Shown here: positions 10,938 to 43,357 of the stretch, in pieces
Position numbering within the stretch: position 1 is the stretch's first letter
Layout of the letters: each line of letters begins with the position of its first letter
Source of the DNA: Hormiphora californensis
Taxonomy: Eukaryota; Animalia; Ctenophora
Reading direction: 5' to 3'
Assembly (NCBI GenBank): GCA_020137815.1
Contig: CM035352.1
Coordinates: 1,984,001 to 2,048,000, forward strand
DNA: 64,000 nt
Program-made: the position numbers and the translations under genes
The notes under the pieces: generated by a model
The model's input: the letters and a program-made list of their open reading frames with translations, nothing else
Databases searched by the model: none
What the model was told of the DNA's origin: nothing

Positions 10938-12253
10938 ATGAATATTCCTGACGTACTTAGTATTCTACGAGGGCTCCAACGGGCTTCCCAGTTACAGCAA
11001 CAACAACTTGACCACCTTATCATACTAGCAGAGCAGCGTTACTTAGCATCCGACCCTCAGCAACACTCCTTAGCAACGCAACACTCCTTAGCAACGCAAC
11101 AATCCCTAGCAACGCAACAATCCTAGCAACGCAACAATCCCTTGCAACGCAACAATCCCTTGCAACGCAACAATCCCTTGCAACGCACTCTGAGCAACAA
11201 TCCCTCGCAACACACTCTGAGCAGCACTGCACTATTGGGGAGGTAGTAAAAGCTGGAACCAAACGGAAGATCTCAGTTACTGACGCCCAGTCATACCCTG
11301 ATGAAGGGCCAAGAGAGAAGAGGGAACACTTGGATAAAATTCTAGAGAAACCTGATTTTCGAACAATTTGGGATGGCATCACAGTCCAGCTGGAACTGGG
11401 GGAAGGGCTGGCAAATCTCAAGAACGGTGATAAAATGTCAGAGATTCTGAGAGAGGCGTGTAAAAAAGCCAAGTTAGCTGTTGCTATGCAGTACAATAAT
11501 CTCCAGTCGGGATATCTGAAAGTTATTACCAAAAACAATGCTAAGATTGATAGAATTCAGTATACCGTTTCTTCCTCAGCGGAAAGTGCCATCTATTTCG
11601 AAGCACACGATCTCAACCGGTTTAGAGATTCCATGAAAGACTTCCAGAAAGCTCTGTCTGACCACAAGGCGCACTTCAAATGCCATCCTCGGGCATCTCT
11701 CCTCTCCGAATCTGTCTTCTCCTGCCTGACCAACCCCGAGTACCGTGTTAAGCGACAACGGCTTCCCTTCGCCATTTGCTGTATGCCCAAACCCGGACTT
11801 TTGTCATTTTTTGTAACAGATTGGGCGTATCAGGATCCTGCCATGCCCAATTCGTCCATATTGCTCCATTACGCCACCCTACAAGTAGACAAGTTTATAC
11901 CGGCTGCAGAGCTAGCTAGTGATCAATGGGCAGCGATGGAGAGTCAACTATTGGGCGCTGCGTGTCCTGCCCAATGTGGTCTGGGCAGTGTCAGTATGTT
12001 CTTCCACGTTAACCGTGGTAACATCATCTGTGGGAAAGTGATGGCTGCCAAGAACTCACCCTTGGAGGGACAATTGAAATTACGGTTGTACCCCCATTAC
12101 ACCAATAGGAGAGGGGGTACCGGGGTTTTCCTGAGTTTTAATGATCATGGAAGTCTGTACGAGAAGGCACTCGATGGACTGAGTGGTGTAGTGGATTTCG
12201 TTGAGAATGATTTTGATGTTGTGAAGAATGATTTTGATGTCAATTCACTCTAA
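10938..12253 (+). CDS. Intronless hypothetical protein of about 438 aa with QQSLAT repeats; one apparent 1-bp frameshift
   Basis: ORFs 10938-11126 and 11330-12253 join if one C is restored in an 18-bp repeat unit near 11122 (CAACAATCCTAGC vs CAACAATCCCTAGC). Confidence 0.55.
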
Positions 12254-15300: not shown

Positions 15301-15745
15301 TGGCTACGTCTTACGGTACGGATCGGTTTGAAAAAATTACAGCAACAAAAACAAAATTCAACACTTTCTCATCGACAAGTGTCCTAGAGGGCATATCTCG
15401 CCTTTTTTTTTTTGATTGATTTCGGATTTACTCTTTCAGTGAAGCCGGAAGAAGCTGCCTAGGTTAACAATTCTGTGGTTTACCAGAATCAGAGCGACTT
15501 TTACAAAAGAGCCATAGCCTAGCTGTGTTTTATCCATCAAGTCCGGTTTGTTGATCTACGGTATAAGAATTGCTGGGCTTTGAACCTAGTGTGAAAATTA
15601 TTCGTTAAATCATAATTAGGGGCTTACGCTAGACACGGAACTTGAAACACGCACGACAAACTTGAAAACGCGCACGATTCCAGTGTTGCGACACACAGCA
15701 GAAATAAAAAAAAAGCATTTACTCTGCCTGACAGGGGGTGATTAT
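12388..15745. repeat. Noisy foldback of about 3.3 kb, containing a ~530-bp tandem duplication and a ~32-bp minisatellite
   Basis: 12540-13065 is repeated at 13066-13590. The left arm is the reverse complement of 14420-15745, with the centre near 14400. Unit TAGCTGAGAGATGGAGTAGATGAGGGGTAGGG; a cleaner relative is at 24335-24690. Confidence 0.85.
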
Positions 15746-16448
15746 GTCCCCTTGGAACCCCTGTGTGTGTGACTCATTTCCCTCCCCATGGTCTGTTCAG
15801 ACCTCAGCTGCACGTTACTTCTAATTAATTTGTAGATTTATGTCGTCCCTTAGTTTTTCTCATGTAAAATATGTATCGATATTTCAATAGTGTTGCTCTG
15901 ACGTTGCGTTTTTGCATCAATAATGTCGTATTTCGTCTCAGCTCACACAGACCCCCCCCTAGGAAGGTACTAGTCACGCATTTTCACCTCTATCCTCCCC
16001 TATTCACTACAGCACATAACACAGGTTCAATGCATGTGACTGTACACCGTTGTTTTAAGCTTGTTACATATCTGGCAGATGGAAATGCCAAAGAAAGATT
16101 AGAACCTGAGATATGCAGAGAAGTGTGTGTGAACATGTGGTTTAGAGAGTGGGACGAAAAAGATGTACAAGCTGTGATTAGGTAGTAGAAGACATAACTC
16201 TCTGAGTTTTTTCCCTTGTTCCCGCCTCAAGACACATGTAACCTTGCGGATGATATTGTTAGAGGGCCACTTTCTTGTACAATTCTGTTTAGCGTCCACT
16301 CTCACTTACACTAATACAACGTACAGTTGTTACAAATTGTTGTAATTGCTTGCCCCATACTCTAAGAATTGAGTTGGAACAAAACAATTGCGAAGAAGTC
16401 TATTTGTAGTTCGGTGTATCCATTTAAACTGTACAACTAATTGTAGGT

Positions 16449-17352
16449 ATGGTGGGTGTGCGGCGGACACGAGGTCAGCGGTCCAATCTAGAGGAACAGC
16501 AACTCCGGAAACTAATGTACTCCGTGACGAACAATGACTTTAAACAGTTGACAGCCGGGGTCACATGGGGATACCGAACCTGAATCCGAATGTGCTGGAT
16601 TACTCACGGCAGGAAAACTGCCCTCCACGCGGGCTTGTGTCATAGGTCTCGATGAGTAGTGGTCAGTCACCTGTGGAGCGGGGGAAGAACGTTACAAACG
16701 AGATAAACCGGGCCGGACCGCGCTCACTCCGGCAGCCGTGGATAAGGGGAATAAGAAGATTTTAGAGACTGCTGTTGGGGGCCGGGGGGATCCACAAGCA
16801 GGGGCACATCACACCGACGTTATTGTTTTATGTCTGCAGCAACTTCTCGGAGCTTTGGCATTTGTTGAGCTGTTACTGAAAGAGGGTGCAGACATCAACA
16901 CGGTCGACCAGCAGGATCAAACCATGTTAATTCATTGTGTCCAGCACGGCTATGAAGACCTAACTGCCACGCTCATAGCCCTGGGTAGTGATGTGAAGTG
17001 TAAGAGTGTGGCCGGGGAGGGGTTGCTGTTTACCGCCGCCAACCAGGATCACTTCAAACTAATTCCAATTTTAGTTAACGCGGGTGTTCACCCCTAAACG
17101 AACCAGACGTGGAGGGTAACACCCCCGTGCACTGTTTGCAGTAAAAACAGGAAATTCCAGATGTTGAAACACCTCGCGGATCACGGCTCTGAGTTGATGG
17201 TCCAGAACGCTGTGGGGGATACACCCTTTCATCTGGCTGTGAGAGGAACATCCCAGTCAGGAGGTGATCAAGTACAAGTTTCTGAGGCTCGAGGTTTGTT
17301 CCACCCGATATCTCCACGCAGAGGGGTCACCCCACACACTGAAAAAACATAG
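16449..17352 (+). CDS. Ankyrin-repeat protein (many indels; next to the gap)
   Basis: VELLLKEGADINTVDQQDQTMLIHCVQHG, GEGLLFTAA, EGNTPVH and GDTPFHLAV ankyrin motifs spread across frames. Confidence 0.75.
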
Positions 17353-17495
17353 CCCCGGCTACAAACTAAGAGATACACAGCTACGAGCAGCGCTGAAACG
17401 TCACGAGTCAAACCAGTGAGAATTTACAATACTGGATGGTAAGGTGGGAAATAGTTCTGAGTTCTGGAGGATGACTTTGTATGCTTGGGTTAAAG

Positions 17496-17595
17496 NNNNN
17501 NNNNNNNNNNNNNNNNNNNNNNNNNNNNNNNNNNNNNNNNNNNNNNNNNNNNNNNNNNNNNNNNNNNNNNNNNNNNNNNNNNNNNNNNNNNNNNN
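17496..17595. other. Assembly gap (100 N)
   Basis: Run of N. Confidence 1.
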
Positions 17596-17732
17596 TTCAT
17601 TAGATATGTGATTGGAGCAAGATAAGTAGTATCTTCGCTCCGTAGGTGAGTGAAGTGCATGTTGCATCACTGAGGAACAGGTTGCACATAGATGGCTTTT
17701 TACAGTCCGGGCCCTGAGCTTTACCCACTTAC

Positions 17733-18654
17733 ACAATACAGGATACTATGGGACGTACCTTGCATGTAGATAAGAACTGATCCGGTGATACTATCTGACT
17801 AGCGTCGAATTTGTGCGTCTTAATCAGAATGTACGCACGGTAACCTGGATGAGTAGTGTGGGTGCCAAGATCAGTCTTACCCATTTTCCTCCGTATGACG
17901 ATCTGCTCCCACAGGTTGTTACATTTGCTCTGGAGGGTTTGGGTCATGTTGGTTATCTGGGTTAGGTATGTGACAGGTCGGTTTTGCAACCAACACCTGG
18001 CTACCAGCGTAGTTTCGGGTCGGCTGGACTAGCTGGTACACCCCAACTGAGCTGGCCAGGTGTAGTTTGGTTAGCTCATGTTGTATATCCCTGGGGGTGA
18101 CCACAAACTCTCCCCCCTTGTCAGACACTGAGATGTGTAGTTCAGACTTCTTGGCTCTCAGAGATCTGAGGCCAGCGGCCTGCTGGTTAGATAGGTTGAA
18201 CGTTCCGCAGGTTGACAGGAGTCGTGTGGCCAGCTGTTGCAAGGTTGCGTAGATCGTCCTCTATTTGGCAATTGGAGACGGGGGGTGGTTTAAGATGACG
18301 CTTTCCAATTGGAGCCCCCTCACTCCGCCATGACTGAATCTGTGTGCATACTGTGGGCCTCTCCTCTGTGGCAACTTTCCATCTAAGTCTATACGCGGTC
18401 GCTGCGATCTCATGGTTAACCTGCTGATGGAGCTCTCATCTACTCGAGTGGATAGAGAGAAATTAGGACCTAGGTCTAATAGCGACTTCTCATATCCGAA
18501 AGTCTTCCAGATCGGGGGTGGTACGATTTCCATCAGGACACTAGGTTCCACTGGATCGGTACATCGGCAGGGTGCTCAGTGTAATAGACAGGGGTGGCGG
18601 GAGGTGCACTTTGCAAGTGGAGCTGGTGGGCATACTTAGCACGAAGTTTATCCT
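17733..18654 (-). mobile_element. Inverted 5' portion of the Penelope-like element
   Basis: 17733-18452 is the reverse complement of 18655-19383. The remaining ~200 bp encodes further upstream ORF sequence (EKSLLDLGPNFSLS). Confidence 0.85.
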
Positions 18655-20816
18655 TCCACTCGAGTAGATGAGAAGCTCCATCAGCAGGTTAACCATGAGA
18701 TCGCAGCGACCGCGTATAGACTTAGATGGAAAGTTGCCACAGAGGAGAGGCCACAGTATGCACACAGATTCAGTCATGGCGGAGGAGGTGAGGGGGCTCC
18801 AATTGGAAAGCGTCATCTTAAACCACCCCCCGTCTCCAATTGCCAAATAGAGGACGATCTACGCAACTTGGAACAGCTGGCCACACGACTCCTGTCAACC
18901 TGCCGGGTACCGTTCAACCTATCTAACCAGCAGGCCGCTGGCCTCAGATCTCTGAGAGCCAAGAAGTCTGAACTACACATCTCAGTGTCTGACAAGGGGG
19001 GAGAGTTTGTGGTCACCCCAGGGATATACAACATGAGCTAACCAAACTACACCTGGACAGCTCAGTTGGGTGTACCAGCTAGTCCAGCCGACCCGAAACT
19101 ACGCTGGTAGCCAGGTGTTGGTTGCAAAACCGACACCTGTCACATACCTAACCCAGATAACCAACATGACCCAAACCCTCAGAGCAAATGTAACAACCTG
19201 TGGGAGCAGATCGTCATACGGAGGAAAATGGGTAAGGACATGATCTTGGCACTCCACACTACTCAATCCAGGTTACCGTGCATGTACATTCTGATTAAGA
19301 CGCACAAATTCGACGCTAGGCAGATAGTATCACCGGATCAGTTCTTATCTACATGCAAGGTACGTCCCATAGTATCCTGTATTGGCTCACCCACCGCTAA
19401 ACTAGCCTGGTTAATAACCTCCATCCTGAGTCCATTGCTTGATGAGGTCTCTCACACCTGAAAAACATCCATACCCATCTACAATGGTCAGAGATCTGTC
19501 ACCAGAGGGTCTCCGTGGTAAGAAGTTTTGCAGTGGAGATATCAGTGCCCTCTACACCAACCTGAACATACAGGCATGTATATCGTCCTTGGTATCTTTT
19601 GCCGAGGAACACTTGGACGTCTTGAACTAAGGGGTCTAGAGTTGGTAGATGTCCATGAGTGTCTAGATCTGGTACTGGAGAGTTCATTCTTTAAGTATGG
19701 TGGGCGCCTCTACAAACAACTCCGGGGGCTATTCATGGGATGTGCCCCTAGTCCCATAGCAGCAGTGGTGAGAGTTTTTATGTTCGAGAGAGCCACCCTC
19801 TACACCGACGTATCGTACTTGCCTATTCTATATGGGCGGTACATTGATGATGCTGTACCGTATGTTATACGAGAGAGGAGGCAGTGTGTTTCTTTGATAA
19901 GATAGGTGAGCAGGATCCGGACCATCTTATCAAATGGGAGGTTGACTTTCCAGAGGGTGATGACTTTGTACCTTTCTTGGGTACTAACATCCGGGTCACC
20001 GAATCTGGGGAGGTGCAGACGCGTTTCTACCGCAAGGAGGCTCGCAAGAATATCACACTGCACGCGAACAGTCACCACCCTATTTCCACTAAAATCCAAA
20101 CTGTCCGTAATTTCTACGCCACAGCGAGGCTAAGTGCATCAGATCGGAACAAGAGGAGGCATCCCTGAGAATAGTGGACAACCTGCTGATTGCTAATGGG
20201 TACCAGAACCCTCGTCAGTTCGCACAACAACAGAGCTGTCGTTTGTACCAGGGTCAGAAGCAGCAGGTGGAGGACTGTGTTATTTTGAAACTGCCTTACA
20301 TCTCTGAATCATTTTCATTACGATCCAGAAGTTTATCTCTAGCCGCTCTTTCCTATCAAAACAGTATTTACTCCAGGTACCAAGCTACGAAACATCTTCT
20401 GTAGCTCACGGCCCCTTGACAATGGAGCAGCTTACTGTGGGGGGAGATCATGTAAAATATGTCCACGGCTAGAGGGGGAGAGGAACTGCCAGGTGACTGC
20501 TCCAGTATACCGGATTACCTGTAACATCTGTAAAGAGATCTACATCGGGGAAACGGGGAGAACAGCAAAAGCCGCTTTGGAGAACATCTCGGTATGCCAC
20601 CTCCCCTACGTTGAAATCTTACTCGGAGATGGCACTCGCAGTGCACTATAAACAGTTTCATAATAAGACAGTACTGATTTGATTTTTGAGATTATTACAA
20701 CAGAGTCACGTATCTTATATAGAAAGATTATAGAAGCATATTATATTAACAGAGAGAAGCCTACTATTAATTTAAAAGAAGAGTTGACTGATCTATCTAG
20801 ATTCCTTATTTCTTAA
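18655..20816 (+). mobile_element. Penelope-like retroelement (RT + GIY-YIG endonuclease), frameshifted
   Basis: SDKGGEFVV, VRPIVS, SGDISALYTN, KQLRGLFMG, YGRYIDD, PFLG, HANSHHP, then VYRITCNICKEIYIGETGR...RKIIEAYYINREKPTIN. Confidence 0.92.
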
Positions 20817-21095
20817 TATTATCCGTTTTTAGTTTTTAGTATTTTCTAACGGCCATATTGGTCATTGAGTATTTTAGCTAGATATCTTTTTGAGCAGTCG
20901 CGTGATTCCTATCTTATTTCACTATCTGATCTTATTTCTTTACTATTTAAACCCCGTCTATTTCCTAGTCTTTACTTTTGTTTTAATTTTTCCAGTCCGC
21001 GGTGGTTAGGGCTATTTTTGGGGTCCGGTTAATGGTTTGTAAAGTCGGATTTTTTGAAACTGTCGCACCCCTGAAATAACAAAATGTGTCATATC

Positions 21096-21200
21096 TCCGA
21101 TTCCTGATAAGATAGAGACTTGAAATTTGGAGGTTCGGAAGAACTTAGCAAGATCTTCGTAACCTCCAAATTTCAAGTCTCTATCTCATCAGGAACCGGA
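21096..21200. repeat. Palindromic hairpin within a dispersed repeat
   Basis: TTCCTGATAAGATAGAGACTTGAAATTTGGAGGTT paired with AACCTCCAAATTTCAAGTCTCTATCTCATCAGGAA; related pieces near 43580 and 44315. Confidence 0.7.
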
Positions 21201-21821
21201 CTTATGGTCATTTAAAGAAATTTGAAAACTCTAAAAAACGACAGTTATTTAAAATCAGACTATAATATCGATTATTTCACCCCTTCCTTATTTCGTTATT
21301 CCTAACCTTGAAAAACCGTGAGTGGCGACACTATTAAACGCCCATATTTTCTCAAAAACGCCCAGATTTTCTTAAAAACGGCAAACGCCCGGATTTTCTG
21401 GATTTTTTATTTTCGCAACAGCTTTATATTTTTTAATAGTGGAGAGCACAGCTCCAGACCGCGCAATTCCAAGCCGCGCATTTTGTTCTTGTTTGCGCGC
21501 GCTCAGCCACTTGTTCGTCCGTACTCGAGCCAAACCAGAAATTTTTCATTTCCACTTCGGTGGATTCTGAGATGTTTGATCCGGACGCTCTGTGCGATTT
21601 CGATGATCTTTCTTTGTATTTTATTTTATTTGTAGCGTTCTTGATTCCAAAGTTATAAATTCATCTTTCCCTGTAATTTAGCTACCTTTTTGATGTTTTT
21701 CGTTGAGAGAAATTTTTGAAAAAAGCTTGAGCAGCCTTGGCCCTTGAGCCTTGACCAAATGCCTGGATGAACAACTTGTCACTGTTTACTATGTTTTTGC
21801 TAGTTGTGTTGCACACCTTCT

Positions 21822-22142
21822 TTAAGGTGTAAGAGCTCTCACACGCACCGCCGAACTATTCAAAAAGTCCTTCATGGCCATTATGAGCCAATCAATCAGG
21901 GAAACTTTAGATTTGTACCTCTTGTTCCCCGATCTATCAGTCGGTCGGGCTCCCAGGGATGGCGCGGCCTGCTTTTTAACGTTAGTGTCGTCGAGAAAAG
22001 TAGGGCTATAGGCATCGATCAGTCTCTTTACCTCAGCGTTAGCAGTGTCGTCATCACGCAGCTCCTTGAGTATACGTTTCTGCTTCTCCACTTGATCACA
22101 ATCGTCAACCATTTTGGCTCAAATTAATTTGTTTAAAGTAGT
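21822..22142 (-). other. Spliced-leader-headed ORF (probable retroposed trans-spliced mRNA)
   Basis: Minus strand reads ACTACTTTAAACAAATTAATTTGAG-CCAAA-ATG, then the 96-aa ORF MVDDCDQVEKQ... The 25-mer matches the 3' half of the ctenophore SL as I recall it. Confidence 0.6.
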
Positions 22143-22628
22143 AGCGGAGAGCGCAGCTTCAGACCGCACAATTACAAGCCACGCATTTTGTTCTTGTTTG
22201 TGTGCGCTGTGTCATATATATAAACTGTGATCATACTATGAACTATCAATTGGAAAGTTTTTGCTATCCCTGGCCTTTTGCTTGTCAATTGTCATCATGA
22301 TAAAAATAGGGCATGAAGGAAAGCCTTTCTGTTAAAAAGTATTACGAAATGCATATATATGTACTGTAATTATCACTTCTTTCATTTAGTATGAAATCGA
22401 TTTGGAACAATTGTGGTAAAACTGTGCTTGAGAAGTCAGTCAACAAGAGATGCTGAGGTAAATTAACTTGAATAAAATTGCCATTTTCCCTCCTGTGATA
22501 TCCTCTGACCTCTCCCACGTTTTTGTGCACACACTACGTTCAGTTTGGGATGGATGATGGAAACTTATTCTCTCCCTCCCCCTTCCCAATGTGGGGAGCC
22601 GGTGATTAGCTAAATCGAGCGTGCTCAA

Positions 22629-23206
<578 letters not shown>

Positions 23207-23307
23207 TGTTTTTGTGTGTGTTTAGTGTTTACTCATCATTTCCCGGTGCTTCAAGCCCCCTACTGACATTTTTTGTATTTTATTCAAATCTAGTTGTTTA
23301 CTTTCAG

Positions 23308-25030
23308 AGCTTCCAGTGAGATATACACTCTCAAAAAGTGTGGCAAGTGTACTGGATGCATACAACAAACCGACTGTGGAATTTGTTCTAACTGCAAGGT
23401 ATAACTTCCGAGCTATAAAACTCTAAACCAATAACACATCTGCACCGAATTGTTTAACTATTTTAGCTACGAACATGGGCATCAAGACTTTCCTGACGTA
23501 ATATAAATACTCTCCCAGGACAAACCTAGGTTTGGAGGCCCCCATGTTATTCGAAAGAAGTGCAGAGAGAAGCAGTGCATCTATAACGGCACCCTGCGGC
23601 ATCAGCAAGACGTATGTTCAAATTTATGTATTGCATATAATATTTAGATTAATTTCCCTATCTCTCATATATATCATCTCTTTCCCAATTTTATCATCCA
23701 AACGCCCCCATGCAGGTCTTGGTTTCCGATGCTACCGACAGTACCTTGTCCACAAACAAAGTTTTAAATAAACGGTATGTAATCTTACTATACTCATTAC
23801 TCTGGTAGAGAATCGGCTGATTAATTATTAGTTGCATCGTTGAGCGAAGCATATATTGTATTATATATACAACAGGGTGTCCCATATATTCTCTGGGTCG
23901 GTTGGCGAGCTGTCACGTAAAAACGGTGATAGTTGATAGTGAAAACAAACTACGGGAGTGTGCTGGATTAATTCCTTCCTAACTGATTGCTTTCAAAAGT
24001 TCATTTTTCATGAATGAACGTTGTTGCCGTTCATTCATGAATTCTGAAATATTGTTTATCTTGAGAAAGTAACTTTTCTTTGGCTCGCAATTATCTTTCC
24101 AATGAGCACCATAAAAGTCAAATTGAAGCACCAGGTCACATGACAGTTGAAAATATGAACATGCATGATTTTGGCTCTTTCTGCGACTCAATTTGAATTG
24201 AACTAATCATCCTTTTTAAGGTGATATGAGATCTTTTAACATTGCTGCACGATACCAATCGCAGAAACCCAAATCACATGCTTGAAGTTGAGAAAATCTC
24301 TTAATTATTGGTCAACGAAGGTGTCAGATATTTTAGTTCTTACAGTTATCTAGCAGGATGGTGTATTGGGGTACCTGAGGGATATGGTAGCTGAGGGGTG
24401 GGATAGCTGATAGATGAAGTAGATAAGGGGTAGTGTATCTGAGAGACGAAGTAGATGAGGGGTAGGGTAGCTGAGAGATGGAGTCGATGAGGGGCAGGGT
24501 AGCAAAGAGATGGAGTAGATGAGGGGTAAGGTAGCTGAGAGATGGAGTAAATGGGAGGTAGGGACTAGGGTAGCTGGGAGATGGATTAGATGAGAGGTAG
24601 GGTAGCTGGGAGATGGATGGGGAAAGCATTATATTGTGTCATTTATAATAACAGTCTACTCTTGTAATATCCGGTACAGTAAAACGTGTTAATATATACT
24701 ATATAGAATATCTCATACATGTAAGTTGTTTAAACCTACATAATTTTTTCAGACTATCTGATGGATCTGTAAAACATTGTGGATTCTGTGACGGATGCCG
24801 ATCGAGCGACTGTGGACAATGTATAAACTGCAAGGTATAAAAATAACTTCCAAAGTCTAAAACTAATATATTATTATATATGATTTGATATGATATGTTT
24901 GCTCTTTCTTCTCTCCAATTTATCCCATACTTTCTACTGACTTGAAATATATGTTATCTTTTAGGATAAACCTAAGTTCGGAGGTCCTAATGTCCGGAAA
25001 AAGAAATGCAGGAAAACACGTCTTGCACCC
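23308..25030 (+). CDS. Exons encoding two zf-CXXC zinc fingers, inside the Academ element
   Basis: GT-AG exons 23308-23398, 23519-23611, 23716-23774, 24753-24834 and 24965 onward splice in frame to CGKCTGCIQQTDCGICSNCK|DKPRFGGPHVIRKKCREKQC and CGFCDGCRSSDCGQCINCK|DKPKFGGPNVRKKKC. Confidence 0.85.
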
Positions 25031-25278
25031 AACCCCAGCTTTATTCCTCCTCTCTCTCTCTCTCTCTCTCTCCTCTCTCCTCTCCTCTCTCTCTCTCTCT
25101 ATCTTTAAATCTCTCTTCGTCTCATCTCATCTCTCTCCCTCTCTCTTCGCTCTCTCACCTCTCCTCCTCCTCTCTCTCCTCTCACTTCCCTCTCATCCCC
25201 CTCTAACTCTGGGAGTTTCTCTCATCTTAGGTCTCGTCTCTCTATCTCTCTCTTCTCTTGTCTCTCTCTCTCTCTCTA

Positions 25279-25336
<58 letters not shown>

Positions 25337-25716
25337 TCTCTCTCTCTCTCTCTCTCTCAGTCTTCGTCAATATTTCCAGATCTCCGAGTCAGTGCCCCCG
25401 TCACCAGAACACCAAAATGCAGGAGACCTTCACATACATGGTGCACAGCAAAAATCAGAGGTACGATTCGAATATGATTCTCGATTATTATGCATGTGGG
25501 TAGAACTTCCTCACTAATTGAGGGCGCTCTATAGTATTATGTGTGTTATCCCTTATTAATTTTGTGATTATTGTTGTCAACAGGCACCCACCGATTCGGG
25601 GTTTTCTCCATCAAACTGAATCGAAAATAATTTTCATTTTACTGCACTTACTTGATTTGTTTGGTTATTGAATCCATGGCTCCCATCCACCCGAAGCCAC
25701 CTGGTAAAGTTATTTA

Positions 25717-25978
25717 GCGGCGATTCAAAAAGGACGTCCATGATTTTTGGTCAATTTTTACCCCCCCCCCCCCCTCCGTCCCCCCTGTCCAGTCCTTTCC
25801 GAATCTGCCAGACGCTCTCCCTCCCCCCTGTCCGACTTTCGTCCACCTTTATCTAGTAAAATCAGTAAAAATTTTCTTCAAAACCTGGGACAGTCCGAAT
25901 TGCGCCAACCCCCTTGTCCAGAGATGTCCGAAATAGGCTACCTCCCCCTACCCCTGGACGTCCTTTTCGAATCGCCCC
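25717..25978. mobile_element. PIF/Harbinger-like MITE
   Basis: TIR GGCGATTCAAAAAGGACGTCCA / TGGACGTCCTTTTCGAATCGCC, with TTA on both sides. Confidence 0.65.
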
Positions 25979-26259
25979 TTAGTAATTAGTATACACGGCT
26001 TATTTTATTTATCAAGTACGGCTCATTTTGGATTGTTAGATTGTGTCATACATTCAGTTTTGACGATCAAGTTATGATCAGTTTTTGTTTTAAAATACAA
26101 TAATAGATCATAAATATGTCCACATTATTCCGATTGAGTTTCTGAGGAGAGAAAGCAAAGGAGAAGAAGAAGACAAAAGACAGAAGAGAGAATATAAAGA
26201 GATGAAAATAAAAGTAAAGTTCCCCCCGGGCCCCAGATCAAAGGATCCCCATGTGGGAT

Positions 26260-26809
26260 TCTGAGACCGAGAGAGAGAGAGAGAGAGACTCAGGAGAGAG
26301 GAGAAGAGAGAATAAGAGAGACAGAGAATGAAGAGGCACCAGAGAGAATGCAGACGAAGATGAAGAGGGAGTGATTGGACAAGTCCAACGATATGTGGGA
26401 GTGGTGAGAGAGGGAAGAGAGAGAGAGAGAGGAGAACAGACCAAACAGGGGAGAGACAGAGGAGGAATAAAAGAGAGACAGGAGACAGGATGCAAAACGA
26501 GGCAGATGCACGACAAGAATGGAGAAATAGAGAAAGAAGAGAGTAGACAAACATTAACCTTCAGAGAGAGAGAGAAGAGAGAGAGAGGAGAAGGGCCTCA
26601 GAAGTCAAATACAAACAGGATCCGGGCTCGGGGTTTAACCCTGCTCAGAGGGATTACGGCCCCATGCGGAAGTTGGTACGTTGTAGTGCGACCGCGAGAG
26701 AGAGAGAGAGAAGAGGAGAGAGGAGAGGAGAGAGAGAGGGGAGAGAGTATGAGAGAGAGAGAGAGATGAGAGAGAGAGACGAGAGGAGAGAGATGTGAGA
26801 GAGAGAGAG

Positions 26810-26887
<78 letters not shown>

Positions 26888-26899
26888 AGAGGACGAGAG

Positions 26900-26935
<36 letters not shown>

Positions 26936-26970
26936 GAGAGATAGAGAGAAAGGGAGAGATAGAGAGACGG
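26260..26970. repeat. (GA)n-rich tracts
   Basis: Directly visible. Confidence 0.9.
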
Positions 26971-27622
26971 ATTGACATACAGTCAGACCCCGATTTATCG
27001 TGATGCTCGGGAGAAAGGGTTTTGCCCGGTAAATTGGGGTCCGACTGCAGTACAGGCTGGCAGTGAAAATATACACTGATAGCGGTGGAAATCATTTAGT
27101 TATTGCTGTTGCAGAGTTTTGTTATACTTAGCTTAGTGAGAGATTGAGATAGAGAGGGCGTCGTTCTTATTATCGTGACCTAATATTCCGGCTTATTAAT
27201 TATAGCTTTACTATCCAGCCAACTAGATATTGATTTAGTAATACTGCTTATAAGGGACGATGCCCTAATCGCAATCCGAGAGATGTCTTTTTCTTTGTTT
27301 CATTGTAAAAAATTCCTCTACTTCATTTTCCAATCTCTAGTGAAGTGTAATTTTTTCCCTTTCTCTCTCCCTCTCTATATGTAAATAAAAAGTTCTCTCT
27401 TCCTTTCTTCCCCTTCAGCCCCTTATTCACAACTTTTATTAGAGGCTCTAGAGGTAGATCTGTTTCCCCCACTCGGGACTGACTATTTGCTTGCTGTTCA
27501 ACGAAAATAGACATCCGGTTGAATGTCCTCAAGATTCATCCGGGTGTACAAAGTCTAAAATGTCGGTATCTATGCATATATATTTGCTTTTAAATCAATT
27601 ATAAGGACAAAGAAATGTCTGA

Positions 27623-30600
27623 ATGATACCCACTGTGTATCCATCGCCTTTTTTATTGCACCGTGCCCCGCCTCATCGACAGTGTTGTCAAGGAGAAGAA
27701 ATGCAAATAACAAAATCCCGGAAGTTCTACCCACCTGTTGGTTGCTATTTGCTAATAAATGATTCTATACACTATTTAGTCCTTATTGTCTATTCCCGTT
27801 GGCAGGAACAGAAAAGAAAACGCATTCGACCGTTAGCTGCTGGTTCCAGTACCCCTCAACCTCATTTCTCGGCTGCAAATGAAGCCATTATAGATCTCCA
27901 ATCACTTCAACAGTGGATGAATCGTCAGAAAACGGCAGTCATTTCTTTCAAAGATATTCAGAAAGTTTGGATGTCAAAGACCATTACTGTTAGTGATGCT
28001 CTCCTACAAGACCATGAGGGCCAATTTGTCATCTCTTATTGTCCTAGAAACCGGAAAAGTATAACATATGTATGCCTCATGTCTCGGCTGCATGAAGCCT
28101 TTTCTCGCAGATTTGACGATATCGTGACACGCCTTCGTCACGATATGTCGCAATTTGAAGCCGGTTCTAGTGGTTCGTTTAATGATTTCTCCTTACCACC
28201 TCGCTCCTTGGTTGAGTTTCTTCAAAAGCTCATCTACAACAATACTGATGTGTCAAGCAAGATTACGGAGAACATCGCATCCTTAATACAGTACCATTTT
28301 GTAGATCGGATAAGGAACGCAGAGAGTTCCAGAAGACACTGCCGAGAAAAAGAGTCCAAACCATTACTGCTCAACTCTCTAAAGCTCTACGTTGCGACTC
28401 AAAGCAAATCAGTCATGGAAATGATGTCAAAAGAGGGTCTCTGCTTGCCTTTTAAGCGTGTCCGCGAAGAAGTAATGTCTATAGCACAAGGAGTAGAGGA
28501 TAAGCTTAAAGATATCGGCAATCTTATGCCATCAGCATTCCAGGAAGGGAAACGTCTTGTAGATTACATGCATCAATTTGGAAAGGATAACCTTGATGAA
28601 AATCGGCAGGACACCTTTGCAAAAGGGCATTTCCATGGCATGGTGCTGGCACTGATCGTTTCCACGTTTTCAACAGATGACCAAGGCGATAAAGAGGACT
28701 CTTTTGAAGTTCCCTATTCTCAAACTAAACGTTTTCAAAAGAAATTCACCTTCCCTACACCAACACCACACTATGTTAAGAAGAATTACCTAGTCCCTGT
28801 GTCAACTGTGTCAACTGATGACTCTGAAATGTTCGAAAACGCAGCAAAGGACGCTATACAGAATGAAGAAGAGTGGCTTAAAAACCCTTGCATTGGTTGG
28901 GCGGAGTATCATTCTTCCGCTGAAAGAGATTCTGATCCGGCCACCTCAAACATCTTTGCATTTCCACTCCTGGACAACTCAGTAGATGAGGCGGGGCACG
29001 GGGCCATAAAAATGGCAATGGAAATCCTGAGGAAAGCGCTCTCAAAGATTAGCTCAGACCAAAAGGTTGTTGTTGACCATTGCGACCAACCTATCTACGC
29101 CAAGACCATGGAGCTGATATGGACGTTGCCAGTGAAGGATTATTTACCAATAGTCGGCGGCCTCCACACTGAAAAGTGTACACTGACAGCGGAATCGGAA
29201 CTACTCAAAGGCTCTGGGCTATTCGAAGTCATGAACCAGGTTAAAATGAGTCTTTCGGGAGCAGGGAATGTCCTTAGTAATGTGACACGAATAACATCGG
29301 CATCGTATCTGTTAAAAGTGATCCTTGTAATCTTAACAAAGATGAAACTGGATTCGGGTAACAAAGCCCATCCTTACTGGGATTTAGTTCTCGACCTTGG
29401 GAAAGTCTACCTCGCCTTCATGGCATCTATCCGAACAGGTTGTTTTGAGTCATACGTTGGTTCGTTGAGGAAAGTCCTACCATTTTTGTTTATATTAAAC
29501 AGAACACACTATAGCCGATGGTTATCAGTTCATATTGAACATTTATCTCGGTTGAGTTCAGAGTTCCCTGAAGTTCACTCTTGGTTTGTACGTGGGGGTT
29601 TTGTGTTCAACAAGTCAGGGAGAGAAGCGTCGAGCATGTCAGGTGATCAGGCCTATGAACAGCTTAACAGAGAACTTAAGTCATGGGCTGGCGCCCTTGG
29701 GACGCCTGGCAGCCGGATTTGGCAGCTTTCTGGACCGATTCTTCAAAGATTGCTACTTGATGACCCCAAAAGTACAGTTGCCCGTCCACATCATTCTTCT
29801 ACAAAAGCTCATTACGAAAGGTTTATTGGTGATGTCCGGGTACTAGAGGAGGGAATCGGGAGAAACTTGTTTTCGTCTGAATCAATTTGCAGAGTAAATG
29901 ATAATTATAACTTGGACGAAGATGGAACGATAGCAGCAAGACTCCGTGATATTGTTGGTGTTGGTCAGAAGCTCTATGATGTGTTTGTGTTCGACCGATT
30001 AACCACAGGAAGGGTACCGCTGTCAGCCACAATTTCTCATCAACCACCGATACTGCCAACATCTGAAGTTGTACAAACTCCCGCACAGATAAAAAAGGCA
30101 CAAAATGACAAGGCTAAATATATCATCAAGCTGAAGGAGGCGTGCCAGGACAAACCGAAACAGGCCAGGAATGTTTTGGAGTTGAACCTCAAGGGAATTC
30201 CGGTTTGTTTTCAAGAGAAGGTGGAGGATGATGTAAACCTGGGAACAAAGTCGTGTCTACTCACAAAACTGAAGGAGAAAGGGGCAGTAGAACGAGGAAT
30301 TGTCAGACCAGAATGCCTCATGGCTGACATGTCATTTATAGCCAACTCTGTCATACCTCGGTTTGGTGGAGGTACTGAGGCCACATACAATACCTTCTTC
30401 CAGGCTTGCTATGACGCGGTAATCAAGTGTGCGAATGGATATACGCCTTATGTGAAGCACATCCACATCGTGATGGACCGGTATGATGAAGTCAATCAGC
30501 TGAAGCAGCCCACGGTGAATAAACGGGAGATGCTGGCAATCCGTAGTCGGGTTTTAACAAGTTTCAACTCGCATGACACAATTGAGCCGGACTTTGCCCA

Positions 30601-31088
30601 GTTGTTCAAGAAGAGGGAAAACAAACACCTCATTTACACTGGTATGGTTTCCTTTCTGAAGATAATAATTAGTCAGCCGTGCAAGTACAATATTGTGATT
30701 ACTGATGGGACAAATATATTCTCCAATCACCAAAGCCCACTGGTTAATGAGCTATCCTCCACCACTTGCGACCATTTTGAATCTGACACCCGATTGTTCG
30801 CACATGCTGCTGCAGCTCTAAGAACTAAAACTCATTCAAGAATCTCCATCCGATGCAACGACACCGATCTAGCAGTTCTTGCTCCTTATTTCGACTGGAA
30901 GTATAGGGAACAGGGAAGGATCTACATCCATCTGGGAACAGCAGGCCAAGAAACCTTTCTATCAGCTAGAAAACTGAACAACTATCTTGGACGTGATGGA
31001 GCGGCAGCATTGCTATTTTTACACTCGGTAAATCAAATCTGATCACAGACAGAGAGAGAGAGACACAGAGAGAGAGAGAGAGATAGAC

Positions 31089-31119
<31 letters not shown>

Positions 31120-31790
31120 CAGAGACAGAGACATGTGCAAAACGAGGCATGCAGACAAGAAGAGTAAAGACAGACCAGAGATCAAACTTGGCTATGAACA
31201 ATTTCTCACAAACCATTAACCCTTTCTAGGTGTCAGGCAATGACTACTCCCCGGCCTTCTTCCAAAAAGCGAAAACTACATGGTGGAAAGCAATGCGTGG
31301 TGACCCGTTGGTGGAGCAATCCTTTGCATCTGTTGTCCGGTCGCCTTCTGAGCTCAGTAAAGAATGGCGCTTTTTCCAGACCATTGTTCTCAGGATATAT
31401 GGGATGGAAACATGCAAAGATCTGACTGAGGCCCGGATGAGAGTGCTAAACAGCGTGGTGAAAACGGACCTCAGAGTAATGCCACCTAACAGCGATGCCT
31501 TGTTCCAACACTTCAAAAGGGCAACATATATTGCTGGGCATCTGTGGGCCAAGGCTGACAATTTGGTTTTAGACTTGCCGTCTAACCTAACTTTTGGCTG
31601 GCACGAAGAAGGCTTCCGTTGGGCAACCAAACATCAGTCCCAACACTGGCAAGAAATACTGTTCAAAACTTGCACCAAGACATGCGGCAAAAAGGATTGT
31701 ACATCTTGCAAGTGTGAAGAATGCTGGAGACAATGTGGTTGTTCTACAAACACTTGTATTAACCGGGAAACTTTTCCCGGTAAATACTAA
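27623..31790 (+). CDS. Academ transposase: DDE domain + XPG/FEN1-like nuclease + C-terminal Cys-rich finger; intron 31028-31229
   Basis: GKDNLD...FHG, DHCDQPIY, GGLH, THYSRW, DQAYEQLN; XPG-like HFESDTR, NDTD, LHS|VSGND, PPNSDALFQH; terminal CTKTCGKKDCTSCKCEECWRQCGC. The true 5' end probably comes from upstream exons (acceptor near 27805). Confidence 0.85.
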
Positions 31791-31934
31791 ACAGATAACA
31801 GTTTGATTGAGTAGAGTATACTGTATGGAATCATCAGAGTACTACCATAGTGCTTCCCGAGTGTTGTCTGAGTATTACCGTATAGTACGATAGTGTGAGC
31901 AAATTGGAACGAAAGTTTGACCAAAATAACTTAT

Positions 31935-32760
31935 AACTTATTATCTAACTTATTTTTACAATTAATTTGTAAGTAGCTTATCTCACTAGCCACTGCTCTT
32001 TTTATTTTTGTTTCATATCACCAAATTAATTTATTAACAGCTTTGTAAGTAACTTCCCTAACTGGTCTATGCTCTCATACTTGTTATTTTCTCAGCACCA
32101 TGAACTAACTAACTTACTAACATATTTTTAGAATTAATCTTATCTTTCGTAGGCCCAAATCAAATACATACTTATAGTTGTATATCAAACCTTATCCAGA
32201 GTGTGACCGAAGTGTTACCATAGTGGGTAGAATTGATGATAAATTATGTTTCTATCATTGATACTATCTTTCTATTGTCTTCTTATTTTTATCGTTCATT
32301 TTATATGTTCATAACATCACGTTAAATAACTTATTATCTAACTTATTTTTACAATTAATTTGTAATTAGCTTATCTCACTAGCCACTGCTCTTTTTATTT
32401 TTTTTCATATCACCAAATTAATTTATTAACAGCTTTGTAAGTAACTTCCCTAACTGGTCTATGCTCTCATACTTGTTATTTTCTCAGCACCATGAACTAA
32501 CTAACTTACTAACATATTTTTAGAATTAATCTTATCTTTCGTAGGCCCAAATCAAATACATACTTATAGTTGTATATCAAACCTTATCCAGAGTGTGACC
32601 GAAGTGTTACCATAGTGGGTAGAATTGATGATAAATTATGTTTCTATCATTGATACTATCTTTCTATTGTCTCCTTATTTTTATCGTTCATTTTATATAA
32701 TGTTCATAACATCACGTTAAATAACTTATTATCTAACTTATTTTCACGTAATTTGTAATT
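31935..32760. repeat. 392-bp direct tandem duplication
   Basis: GTGTGACCGAAGTGTTACC occurs at 32201 and 32593. Confidence 0.9.
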
Positions 32761-35700
32761 AATTTTTCTGACTGGCGGCCAGTGGTGTGGACTGTGGTCT
32801 CTTTTATCTTTCCGCACCATATAAATAGCAGCTCTGTTTTACAAATAAGTATAACATGCATAACCATTGAAATCTTTTGCAGGCCACTGATCATTAATAA
32901 TTGTATGTATGTGACAAATAATACTTTTTACAGTCGTTTACTTAGCTACTCACCTACTATTTAAAATCACTTAATAATTTTATCAATGTTCAGTTACAAT
33001 GGCCTATAATTATAATTAGTACATATAGACTCATTTCAATCATTCGCCAGTGTGTGAGCGAGAGAGATATTTTTGGCGAGTAAACCTAAGGAAGTTGGAT
33101 GTAATCTTAAGTTTTAATTAAGTTATTATTAAAAAGTTTTCTGTACCTGGACATATAATGACATAAGAACTTGTTTTCATAATTAATCCGTATCCGTCTG
33201 GTGAATATCCTTCATTCCCTCCCTATTATTGTCCCTAAATCCCAACCGCATTGCGATAAATCTGACTAATTTATACCATTATATAACTAGCTCTATACGA
33301 TAGATGTAGATGACGATGTGCTGTTAAAATTCCCATCATTCTTTGGTGAGTTTTTAGGTTCATTTCTTCGATGGGTTACTAATATTTTTTTGCATTTTTC
33401 TGCCCTTCCATTATACATAAATTGGGTAGAAATTCGGTCTAGCTTGGTAATCTGGTGACTTTCCCGAAATTTGGTTCGATTCGATTCGGTTAAGTGGGTT
33501 AAATGAATGTACATGACGTGTTAGATTGCGGTAGAAATCACTCACATCAGCCACACTCATAGAACCAAGTTGGTACGACAAGTAATTGATTCAACCGACC
33601 ATAGTAGAGAAAACCCCGGTTTGGTTCCTGCCCGTTTTGTACATGAAATATATTTAAATCCTCCTCCTCAGGCGAATCAACGGTTAAACACTGCACCTCA
33701 GATAATGTCGAATGGAACCTGAATGAGAGATGGATACCCCTACAATTCGAAACATTAGGAGATTTGGACAATGATCTATTCAAACAGGTTTTTTGCTGCC
33801 CTCTTTTTACAGCATTTGCACCCTATTCTCATACATCTGACAGATGTTCCATTCAGGTTTCATAATCTGACTCGTGTTTAGAATTTAACACTCATTCATG
33901 TTAGATACCTATACATCATAATCGACTGACTTCTTAGCTGTTTACAAGGCAACTGTAATGGGACTACAATTTAAAATGCAATGTGTGTGCTCATAAGCAA
34001 TACTGAACGGAATACGTCTACTTGCCATTACCCACCCCAGTAGTTTTGATAAATTGATCGACTTTATAACTGCTGTTCATAGGACAGGGACACCATTCTC
34101 TACATAACCATGATGGGACTCCTATAATTATGTTTAATTGACTACAAGTACGACAATCTCCAACCCTCTAAAACTCTCACATGTGAGTTTATAACCCTCT
34201 AACACTGCCCCCCCCCCCTTACCAACCCTCTAACACCCCTTCCTGATTCCTCTCAGGAACGAGATCTTGAAGAGGAACAGCCCGGCCCAGCACTCAGCAG
34301 TCAAGAGACCCCCCCCCCCCCCCCCCCTGGAAGCTATGACCCAGACTGACAAGAGATCACATCTCGACCTGAAACTGATGATGTGGAGGATTACTGTGAT
34401 AAGGTTTGTGTCCAGCTCTTAACCCCAGTTAGGTTGATTTTCTCAATCCCCTAACTGCTTATTTACACTCTCGTGTACTCGTATAGCCCATGTTACATCT
34501 TATCACTCAACTCCTGCTACCCAAACCGCAGTTTCTATGTTTTATCCCACCCCAACACCCCTAACTCACCCCCTAATCAACCAGGCCCTAACACACCATC
34601 TCCTCCTCTCCAGGACCACTCAGAGTTGGAATCCGAGTTGAATGTAACAAACTGCACCACATGTACTTTAAATGACGGCGGCTGTGGGTGCTGTTGTGAT
34701 GTGTGCTGCATACACTGCATACATCATCTACTGACTGCAGTACTGATCCAGCTCCATTTTGGCTGTTTACATGGAATGGGAATAGAATTGGAAATACAGT
34801 GAATGGACTCATAAACAATACCGAACATATCTATTATTGTCCCTGAAATTAGAAGGAGAATACAAAGCGGAATTTTCATTATGGAGTGTTTTGACTATTG
34901 AGCTGACCTAATAATGCCATACTTTTACTGATATTTTCTGTTTTATTGCGGCTCAGTGCCACTACCCACTGCGGTAGTTTTGATAAATTGGTCTACTTTC
35001 TAACTGTTGTTCATAGGGACACCATTGTATGATATACCTTCCCCACGGCCAACTCTATATTGTATTACCATGTTGGGACTACCAAGTCCCATATTTCCGT
35101 TTAACTTACTATCTCAATGGTGTCCTGCAAGTTTCCAAGGCGACCGGCCACTTTTGGTGACAAAATCCATTTTCAGTCACACTCACAAACAGTCCGAACG
35201 AACTAACATGTACCGCGCGAAAAAAGCGCTCAGCGCGCGGGTGAGAGTGCCACTGTCAGTTCAATCCGCGATGTCGCCCGACGTCGGCGCGCACAACGAT
35301 GGACTTAGGCTCCCCACTATAAATATAAATTTAAAATAAGGCCATCCCGCGCGGCAGAGTTGATACAAATTTAATTCGCGCGTTACATTTATTATTGTTT
35401 ACGATGGGCCGCTAAAAATAGAAAATTCATCTGCTTTTAAATTTTGGCCAAATTTGGTTCCTTTTTGTTTTTGAAAAGCGCTGCCTTATCCCGCGCTGCG
35501 CGTGGCGCAGAACTATCGGGGGCCAGCAACGTTTGCCAATTTTTGTTTTTACTTTTTCTTCGCACTTGAATCAAGGTGCTGCCTTATCCCGCGCTGCAGG
35601 CGCCAGTAGCGTTTGCCAATCTTCGCACATGTTTTTAAACACGACTGTTTTCCTCTGCCAGTGTCAAGTTCTTTTGAAAAGCGCTGCCTTATCCCGCGGG

Positions 35701-35793
35701 GGCCAGCGGCGTTTGCCAACAAGCTTTGGCCCCTAACTGTGATAGGAGGGCCTAAAATTTCAATAACTCCTCTTAGTGCAGACCTTCTGTGAC

Positions 35794-36076
35794 GGTAAGC
35801 GGTAAATACTCAAATGGTTCTTTACATTTTTTGGACGTTTTTGACCATAACTCATTTCTTGACCAATTTGCAAAATATTTGGCTCATTAGAAAGAGGAAC
35901 TTGTCAAGTTCCTCTTTCCAATGAGCCAAATATTTTCAAGTTCAACTTGAGATCATTCAAATCAGCCAAAAAATAAAATCTGTGCAAAATTTGTGGCGTC
36001 ATGGTGCACAATACGCGTTTTTGCCACAACGCCACGCAATAAAAGATGAAGAACCGTGTGAGTATTACCGCTTACC
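35794..36076. mobile_element. 283-bp MITE with a 9-bp TSD (Merlin- or MuDR-like)
   Basis: TTCTGTGAC|GGTAAGCGGTAAATACTCA...TGAGTATTACCGCTTACC|TTCTGTGAC; internal palindrome at about 35872-35936. Confidence 0.8.
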
Positions 36077-36879
36077 TTCTGTGACGGTAGAGCAAGCTAA
36101 GGTAATCAGTGATTACTGATTAGTGATTACTGATTAGTGATTACTGAGAGTGTTGGTTGCCTGGGGGTAACCTTTGTAAGGGACTCATGTTCCTACATTG
36201 TTTCTCTCTCAGCGTGACTGAGAGTTAGTTAGGGCAGAGGTATTTGATGATTTTATGATGGTTAAGAATTAGTTTGGAGGAAATGAATAGTTATTGATTC
36301 TTTGAGGATAGCTTATATTATATATTTGTTATGGAATGATATTCGTCGTAGAGAATTTGAGCCAATATTTTATACGAGTAGGAATATAGAGATTGCTGAG
36401 CGTGCATCACGTCATCATGTGATCTGAGGCAGATGGGACTAGAGAGAGGGGCCATACCTATCATAGCTTGGTGGACTAAACTACATTCGCTAGACGAGGG
36501 TCGGACCCGGGACCTAGTGCATGAGAGGCGAGTGTTATACTATAGTCAGCGACTATTAGTCACTACTCCACCCTTCCATCTGCTCATTCATGCTCATTAT
36601 TCGTTCGGGACAATGTATTCTATATAGACAGGCGAATAGTCCGCAATATAGCTGCACATGACTCACGTATATGTCCCCGCAATATTAATTATGTATGTTG
36701 CGGGGGACAACGTAGCCACAGATATCTGTGTCAAGGCTTGTGATGCTTTTGGACCCTGCTGATTGTATAGTATCCTACCCTCACATAACGCCTCTTTTTT
36801 ATAATACACTTTTCTGTTTTGTTTAGCACAACATCATGCCTGTATTTTCTAAAACCCCTTTTTCGTTTAGCACAACATC

Positions 36880-42898
<6,019 letters not shown>

Positions 42899-43357
42899 AT
42901 GACGGAAATTAACTTTGCAATGATATGACTCTTTGTATTATTGATTGGGATTTGATTGGGAGAGTTACCGAGACAAGAACAGTTTTTAGACCCTACGCGT
43001 GAACAAATTGAGCCAAAGAAACACACCATGTTCAGTGACCTGTCATTGCTCCTCAACTAGTCATGCTAAAACTCTGTCTGGCTGTGGCACTCTGGCGGTG
43101 CCGACTCGATCTAAGCTTACTGTCAAACTTCAAAGCTGTCAGAGCATTGGCCTGACCCTATTCTCATTTCTTTCAAATAAGGTTCAGAGCTGAGTGCACG
43201 AGAACTGTGGTCAGTCGAGAGCATTAGCCTGAATTGTTGAGTAAGGGGACAAGGGGTCAACAACGCCAGTGGCAGTGACTGTCAGAGAATCAAACCGGGG
43301 TCTGGCGCCGGCGGTGCCAGACAGTTAGAACTGTGATTCTATATGAATACTCTAAAC

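What the first reader, a model, noticed from the sequence alone, without database searches (positions are those of the whole stretch)
23308..31790. Academ transposon carrying two zf-CXXC CpG-reader domains upstream of (possibly fused to) its transposase
Seen: five GT-AG exons inside the element splice in frame to two CXXC fingers, on the same strand as and upstream of the DDE-XPG ORF. Further small exon-like blocks (25360-25460, 26620-26676, 27513-27565, 27606-27740) lie across the gap, and both element ends are CpG-dense. Known: zf-CXXC domains of CFP1/MLL/KDM2/DNMT1 read unmethylated CpG; AcademX is described as transposase + XPG + Cys finger, and I know of no CXXC-bearing Academ. Here the usual KQ/RQ specificity pair is RK and KK, so recognition may be altered. 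Inference: a methylation-sensing transposon that could bind its own unmethylated ends or target unmethylated chromatin.
Basis: partly seen in the sequence, partly recalled or inferred. Interest (0 to 1): 0.85.

Follow-up and report, generated by a model that had tools for sequence, protein, structure and literature searches.

The report
Academ-type transposase with twin CXXC fingers
Two zinc fingers of the kind that animals use to read unmethylated CpG DNA sit just upstream of an intact Academ-like jumping-gene enzyme and are likely its front end, which would make this a transposon predicted to steer by DNA methylation, but the join, the element's ends and the binding are untested.

Summary
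The zf-CXXC exons are real. Four GT-AG introns splice five exons in frame into a tandem finger pair: 8 of 8 cysteines in finger 1, 7 of 8 readable in finger 2, KFGG-type linkers, and Lys where CFP1 has Gln. They lie 2.8 kb upstream of an uninterrupted 1260-codon Academ-like frame under purifying selection. Two phase-0 linker exons could join them in frame, but no transcript or contig bridges them. Two other samples hold several diverged versions of both parts, which fits a small transposon family; the probable source sample holds one. This copy has lost most of the exon just before the transposase. Academ/XPG identity rests on recalled motifs; a FEN1 profile found nothing. Best reading: an AcademX-type transposase with a captured, duplicated CXXC module (0.45). 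Rivals: separate neighbouring gene (0.3), domesticated fusion (0.2). No CXXC-Academ appeared in the papers searched or in the scan's notes, which do list Academ with PHD, CW or other CxxC fingers on other DNA.

The parts
23308..23398 (+). Exon 1 of the CXXC series: first six Cys of finger 1. No Met in frame, so an upstream exon is needed; it was not identified.
   Evidence: (zf-CXXC 28 bits)
23519..23611 (+). Exon 2: RFGG linker, RK dipeptide (RQ in CFP1), Cys 7 and 8 of finger 1
23716..23774 (+). Exon 3: spacer between the fingers
   Evidence: covered by X5 and X6 contigs, 2 of 2 shown changes synonymous
23840..24630 (.). High-copy repeats nested in intron 3; one X5 contig passes from exon 3 to exon 4 without aligning to them
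   Evidence: depth table, joint 23779 to 24807, letters between not known
24753..24834 (+). Exon 4: first six Cys of finger 2; tandem duplicate of exon 1 with the same intron position
24965..25011 (+). Exon 5, supported part: KFGG linker, KK dipeptide, Cys 7 of finger 2. Its 3' end, Cys 8 and donor are unresolved.
25380..25460 (+). Candidate linker exon (81 nt, phase 0-0; alternative acceptor at 25361), inferred from splice signals only
26619..26675 (+). Candidate linker exon (57 nt, phase 0-0), inferred from splice signals only
27497..27627 (.). Repeat fragment (not an exon of this gene)
   Evidence: separate contigs, depth 1165 in X6 against about 30-60 beside it
27640..27707 (-). Inverted fragment of a sibling transposase, 85% identical to 28955-29022
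27706..27736 (+). Probable 3' remnant of an exon whose 5' part is present in X5 and X6 contigs but replaced in this copy; donor at 27737 inferred
   Evidence: tables 7 and 8; (missing part not found in the window)
27806..31027 (+). Main exon: Academ-like DDE core (candidate D 28586, D 29084, D/E 29645-29659) and XPG/FEN-like acidic motifs (30323-30870)
   Evidence: (DUF6589 E 7e-5, below cut-off); family assignment from recalled motifs
31028..31229 (+). GT-AG intron; an X6 contig runs from one exon into the next without it
   Evidence: loose end at 31030
31230..31790 (+). Last exon: GND motif, PP motif, C-terminal Cys cluster, stop

Best explanation
Two tandem zf-CXXC fingers lie on spliced exons upstream of an intact 1260-codon Academ-like transposase frame and are likely the N-terminus of that one protein, in a likely low-copy AcademX-type transposon family, where they would tether the enzyme to unmethylated CpG-rich DNA. 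Shown: the exons, their duplication, the Gln-to-Lys change in both fingers, the open frame, its purifying selection, and several diverged versions of both parts in two other samples. Inferred: (1) one host type-1 CXXC exon pair was captured and then duplicated inside the element; (2) splicing through two phase-0 linker exons, plus the exon that this copy has largely lost, gives one protein of roughly 1450-1600 residues; (3) the fingers still clamp linker DNA and still exclude methylated cytosine, because part of that readout uses backbone contacts of a rigid loop (PMC3685328), while Lys for Gln may loosen or shift guanine readout; (4) the likely use is choosing insertion sites in unmethylated, open chromatin, the mirror image of CopiaMBD, rather than binding the element's own ends. 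This copy is probably immobile: no ends were found and one exon is disrupted, although skipping that exon would keep the frame.
For: In-frame GT-AG exon chain and Pfam/PDB matches. Fingers 1 and 2 share an intron position and intron-edge sequence. No stop codon appears in the supported CXXC frame. The linker exons are phase 0-0 and the main exon starts in phase 0. X5 and X6 contigs share sequence before 27706 that, read by hand table 7, is open in the transposase frame, so the gene extends 5' of the main exon. Of 31 shown substitutions in the main exon, 21 are synonymous against an expected fraction of 0.22-0.28 (40 of 498 rows were shown and 9 outside the exon were dropped). X5 holds transposase versions at 95.2-98.6% and 81.5-86.7%, X6 at 87.9-97.5%. 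The same runs hold two or more contigs over exon 1, at about 87-90% and at 99%. None of the 10 shown changes in the CXXC exons touches a Cys or alters the RK pair (40 of 157 rows shown). A sibling's fragment sits in the window itself. Precedent for reader domains on transposons: PMC6673714 and 10.1101/2021.11.30.470311 (passages).
Against: No read, contig or protein record joins the CXXC exons to the transposase. No inverted ends or target duplication. X2, which may be the source of the window, shows one transposase contig and no sibling at 80% or better. The exon before the main exon is disrupted here. The extra CXXC contigs could be internal finger duplicates or host CXXC genes rather than sibling elements. 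The KQ/RQ motif of type-1 fingers is not met. An archaeal FEN1 profile did not detect the C-terminal half. The main exon has its own Met 38 codons in and could start alone. Host methylation is unknown; the window's CpG ratio of 0.66 is only a hint.
Confidence: 0.45

Rival explanations
1. The CXXC exons are a separate gene: either a host CXXC gene next to or around which an Academ element landed, or unfused cargo inside the element. The transposase then has its own 5' exons and the adjacency says nothing about targeting.
For: No bridge between the two parts. The end of exon 5 is unreadable and could hold a stop. 2.8 kb of microsatellite and repeat debris lies between them. No element ends enclose the fingers.
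Against: Same strand, compatible phases. No host domain (PHD, SET, JmjC, methylase) was seen in the ORFs scanned nearby. Both parts show several versions in the same two runs and one in X2. Tandem near-duplicate fingers with Lys for Gln match none of the solved host fingers returned.
Confidence: 0.3
2. A domesticated fusion: a single-locus host gene built from a CXXC pair and an Academ transposase, kept by selection as a chromatin or DNA-repair factor that the fingers would bring to CpG-rich promoters.
For: One copy in X2, no ends, many host-like introns, strong synonymous bias, and a 94-98% version in a run with another species label.
Against: Additional versions at 82-90% in X5 and X6; an inverted sibling fragment in the window; loss of most of one exon in this copy; all candidate catalytic acids kept.
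Confidence: 0.2
3. The fingers are fused but have lost CpG reading and act as a general DNA-backbone clamp or a protein-interaction module, like the type-2 fingers of MBD1.
For: Gln replaced by Lys in both fingers. Type-2 fingers that lack KQ/RQ do not bind DNA (PMC3685328, passages).
Against: Linker length and KFGG are kept, whereas type-2 fingers lose all linker similarity. The basic residue of the pair is kept, and the change is shared by both fingers and by the X5 version.
Confidence: 0.15

Closest known systems
AcademX lineage of Academ DNA transposons (Kapitonov and Jurka 2010; Kojima 2020; neither paper held; 3-4 bp target duplications and a nuclease as stated in PMC10045372, passage)
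   Same: One large protein with DDE-like motifs, then XPG/FEN-like acidic motifs, then a C-terminal Cys cluster (motif assignment recalled; positions). Weak DUF6589 hit. Atlas neighbours are 940-1350 aa eukaryotic proteins at 0.90-0.92.
   Different: Two zf-CXXC fingers upstream; at least nine introns if fused; no inverted ends or target duplication found; no full-length relative found by sequence search.
CopiaMBD retrotransposons of a centipede and spiders (de Mendoza et al. 2019, PMC6673714, passages)
   Same: A host-derived reader of CpG methylation state next to the integrating enzyme, proposed to bias insertion sites.
   Different: Retrotransposon, MBD reads methylated CpG, fusion and binding shown. 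Here a DNA transposase, a reader family for unmethylated CpG, fusion and binding untested.
Type-1 zf-CXXC domains of CFP1, MLL1/2, KDM2B and MBD1 CXXC3 (Long et al. 2013, PMC3685328, passages; PDB 3qmb, 2kkf, 5w9q)
   Same: Eight-Cys spacing and a KFGG-type linker; best PDB matches.
   Different: RK and KK instead of RQ/KQ; two near-duplicate fingers in tandem; no host effector domain seen nearby.
[quoted passage not shown]
   Same: Transposons recruiting chromatin readers or modifiers.
   Different: Neither main text contains the word CXXC.

Membership tests
AcademX | DDE transposase of the Academ type | tested here: inconclusive
   Candidate DN, DQP and DQ.YEQ motifs present (resemblance recalled). 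Pfam gives only DUF6589 at 22 bits against a cut-off of 27. Atlas hits unnamed. The profile search of representatives never ran.
AcademX | XPG/FEN-type nuclease after the transposase | tested here: inconclusive
   Six acidic residues lie in the same order and a similar context as the six invariant acids of 64 archaeal FEN1 proteins (by eye), but HMMER (-2.6 bits, below shuffles) and hhalign (probability 0.2%) found no match. No Pfam, NCBIfam, PHROG or PDB hit.
AcademX | C-terminal Cys-rich finger | tested here: met
   Nine Cys in the last 40 residues; that this defines AcademX is recalled.
AcademX | Terminal inverted repeats | tested here: not met
   None found in 15000-23310 against 31790-45000. 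Short, decayed or more distant ends could be missed.
AcademX | 3-4 bp target-site duplication | not testable with these tools
   Needs defined ends or an empty site.
AcademX | Dispersed copies | tested here: inconclusive
   One contig in X2; several versions in X5 and X6, loci unknown. No whole genome is held.
type-1 zf-CXXC | Eight Cys in two clusters | tested here: met
   Finger 1: 8 of 8. Finger 2: 7 of 8 readable, the window being unsupported after 25011.
type-1 zf-CXXC | KFGG linker | tested here: met
   RFGG in finger 1 (KFGG in the X5 version) and KFGG in finger 2.
type-1 zf-CXXC | KQ or RQ recognition dipeptide | tested here: not met
   RK and KK.
type-1 zf-CXXC | Binds unmethylated and not methylated CpG | not testable with these tools
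   Needs EMSA, ITC or DAP-seq.

The most novel reading that the evidence does not exclude
A cut-and-paste transposase family has captured and duplicated a host unmethylated-CpG reader, retuned its recognition loop (Gln to Lys), and uses it to aim insertions at unmethylated promoters and open chromatin: the mirror image of CopiaMBD and a natural methylation-guided integrase.
Probability: 0.27. Interest if true: 0.85.

Novelty: new variant of a known kind. Interest (0 to 1): 0.6.

Why it matters
DNA methylation silences transposons, and a few elements are known to carry methylation writers, erasers or a methyl-CpG reader. A transposase carrying a reader of unmethylated CpG was not found in the searches made here. 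If the fusion holds, it gives a direct test of whether DNA transposons choose targets by methylation state, a first chromatin-targeting handle on the biochemically little-studied Academ family, and a natural Lys variant of the CXXC recognition loop. If it is domesticated instead, it would be an Academ-derived host chromatin gene.

Tried and rejected
No whole genome is held, so copy number and flanks could not be read. No RNA holder was listed; X11, a guessed RNA run, laid nothing on the CXXC stretch, and X10 laid one short contig on the transposase stretch; neither is evidence on expression. Homologue searches: none for the transposase at 592-1887 aa, none for exon 4 with its upstream frame, one 51-aa fragment among shorter proteins. 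No relative in metagenome or viral contigs or phage records. Exact look-up found neither of two window proteins. The profile search of representatives was never served, so the N-termini of distant Academ relatives were not surveyed for CXXC. Two single-sequence AlphaFold models were unusable (pLDDT 36 and 38) and no fold search was run on them. The motif-spacing pattern was written after seeing the sequence and matched 0 of 64 FEN1 proteins, so its 0 of 5000 shuffles is discarded. The donor matrix had mis-set host donors and was used only to list candidates; no convincing first exon came out. Rfam and ARAGORN found nothing. Rejected: CpG-dense element ends; 27513-27565 and most of 27606-27740 as exons; depth ratios as copy numbers. 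Kojima 2020, Iyer 2014 and Yuan and Wessler 2011 were not held; Repbase and Dfam were not available; the supplement of PMC12062965 could not be read and that of 10.1101/2021.11.30.470311 was not seen, and either could list a CXXC-transposase fusion. My impression that the host is ctenophore-like comes from no call; PMC12221973 and PMC12460157 were read (passages) on that hunch and are not used as evidence.

Full report
Observation. The region is spliced animal-type DNA rich in microsatellites; no call identified the host. Five exons from 23308 splice in one frame through four GT-AG introns. Exon 1 passes the Pfam zf-CXXC cut-off alone; exons 4 and 5 hit the family below cut-off, and exon 2 gives no Pfam hit. 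The best solved matches are MLL1/2, CFP1 and MBD1 fingers. The six-Cys half-finger pattern occurs twice in the window and in none of 100 shuffles. Exons 1-2 and 4-5 share an intron position and intron-edge sequence, so the pair arose by tandem duplication. Finger 1 has all eight Cys; finger 2 has seven readable. Contigs of X2, X5 and X6 all stop matching at 25011, X2 after 476 identical bases, so the following bases, the eighth Cys and the donor of exon 5 are unresolved, probably through assembly error next to a CT microsatellite (inference).

The recognition loop. The CFP1 RQ aligns with RK in finger 1, and finger 2 has KK. Long et al. (PMC3685328, passages) state that type-1 fingers have KFGG and KQ/RQ, that the dipeptide makes side-chain and backbone contacts with CpG, and that methylation clashes with a rigid loop; type-2 fingers lose both the dipeptide and the linker similarity. 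These fingers keep the linker and lose the Gln, so they fail one type-1 test without looking like type 2. The X5 version keeps RK in the rows shown, so the change is not private decay of this copy.

The transposase. 27806-31027 and 31230-31790 give 1260 codons without an internal stop. An X6 contig runs across the junction without the intron; read by hand, its ten codons differ from the window at five synonymous and no non-synonymous sites. DN, DQP, GGLH, HYSRW, DQAYEQ, then D, D, ESD, DTD, GND, PP and a Cys cluster appear in the order that I recall for AcademX. Tool support is thin: DUF6589 below cut-off, Atlas feature neighbours at 0.90-0.92 among unnamed eukaryotic clusters, no PDB, NCBIfam or PHROG match. 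A profile from 64 archaeal FEN1 proteins, kept from 120 loci, did not detect the C-terminal half, although six acids line up by eye with the six invariant FEN1 acids. I therefore call it Academ-like, membership not proven.

Selection and copies. In X2, which may be the source of the window, one contig covers 27380-31035 with no difference and no sibling reaches 80%. X5 (same species label, another sample) holds a main version at 95.2-98.6% and a minor one at 81.5-86.7%; X6 (another species label) holds pieces at 87.9-97.5% (eight pieces per run, from a cut table). Of the 31 shown substitutions inside the main exon, 21 are synonymous, against 22-28% expected (40 of 498 rows shown, 9 outside the exon dropped). 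Over the CXXC exons X2 again shows one version, while X5 and X6 show two or more contigs over exon 1, and X6 has one low-depth joint that skips intron 1 with unknown letters between. The parallel pattern fits fingers that travel with the transposase, but internal finger duplicates or host CXXC genes could give it too, and depths are not copy numbers.

The gap. 25380-25460 and 26619-26675 have good splice signals and are both phase 0-0, and the main exon starts in phase 0, so a fused frame is possible if exon 5 ends in phase 0. X5 and X6 contigs share different sequence before 27706, which is absent from the window and, read by hand, is open in the transposase frame. So the gene extends 5' of the main exon, and this copy has lost most of that exon; skipping it would keep the frame. 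Intron 3 holds high-copy repeats that one X5 contig does not align to.

Ends. No inverted repeat links the flanks. CpG ratios at the finding's ends are ordinary; the CpG-rich patch at 35150-35750 lies upstream of a serine palmitoyltransferase 2 gene starting at 36880 and is more simply its promoter (inference). The idea that the fingers bind the element's own CpG-rich ends has no support here.

Mechanism. Most likely (0.45) the fingers are the N-terminus of the transposase of a low-copy AcademX-type family and would tether it to unmethylated CpG-rich linker DNA, biasing insertion to open chromatin. Capture, fusion, binding and targeting are all inferred. Rivals are a separate gene (0.3) and a domesticated fusion (0.2); a fused but CpG-blind module (0.15) overlaps with the fused readings.

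Literature. Ten searches listed no paper whose title or abstract opening describes a zf-CXXC on Academ or another transposase; I saw listings of at most 20 papers each, not all hits. Passages were read in PMC10799480, PMC10294476, PMC5751038, PMC10045372, PMC3685328, PMC6673714, PMC11244446, PMC12460157, PMC12730594, PMC12221973 and 10.1101/2021.11.30.470311. CopiaMBD is the closest analogue; Chromo and PHD fusions are common. The defining Academ paper and Repbase were not available, so the architecture may be catalogued there. The scan's notes list Academ proteins with PHD, CW and other CxxC fingers in other genomes but none with zf-CXXC; these notes were not checked.

Verdict. A real and unusual arrangement, best treated as a new variant of a known kind, with the decisive link unproven. 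Interest 0.6.

Noticed in passing
window 25012-25050: Contigs of three runs, including the probable source, stop matching at 25011; the window sequence next to the CT microsatellite is probably mis-assembled.
   Followed up: partly
window 5-1396 / 5502-6849; 17734-18462 / 18647-19384; 53091-54451; 14064-14747: Long inverted duplications and palindromes at 77-99% identity, possibly assembly fold-backs; the first holds an intronless rRNA adenine dimethylase ORF at 270-1343 on the minus strand.
   Followed up: no
window 18600-20780: Broken reverse-transcriptase and GIY-YIG-like frames resembling a Penelope-like element (recalled motifs; no Pfam hit for two fragments).
   Followed up: partly
window 11012-12253: 413-codon open frame with a short N-terminal repeat and no Pfam match.
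   Followed up: no
window 1425-2277 and 21263-21380: A 118-nt stretch at 96% identity is shared; the first copy leads into a 267-codon frame with a weak zf-RVT hit.
   Followed up: no
window 21830-22112 minus strand: 94-codon Met-started frame without Pfam match, between two 70-nt direct repeats at 21434 and 22139, inside a CpG-rich patch.
   Followed up: no
window 26978-27052: Small fold-back element with roughly 20-nt inverted ends.
   Followed up: no
window 31933-32761: 393-nt tandem duplication at 98% in the AT-rich stretch after the stop codon.
   Followed up: no
window 36880-39980: Spliced serine palmitoyltransferase 2 gene with a CpG-rich patch 1.2 kb upstream.
   Followed up: partly
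window 59749-63613 minus strand: Exons with immunoglobulin and sushi domains.
   Followed up: no
run X6 on window 23396-23517 and 31030: Contigs of a run guessed to be DNA lack two introns of this gene, suggesting an intron-poor sibling, a retrocopy, or RNA in the run.
   Followed up: partly
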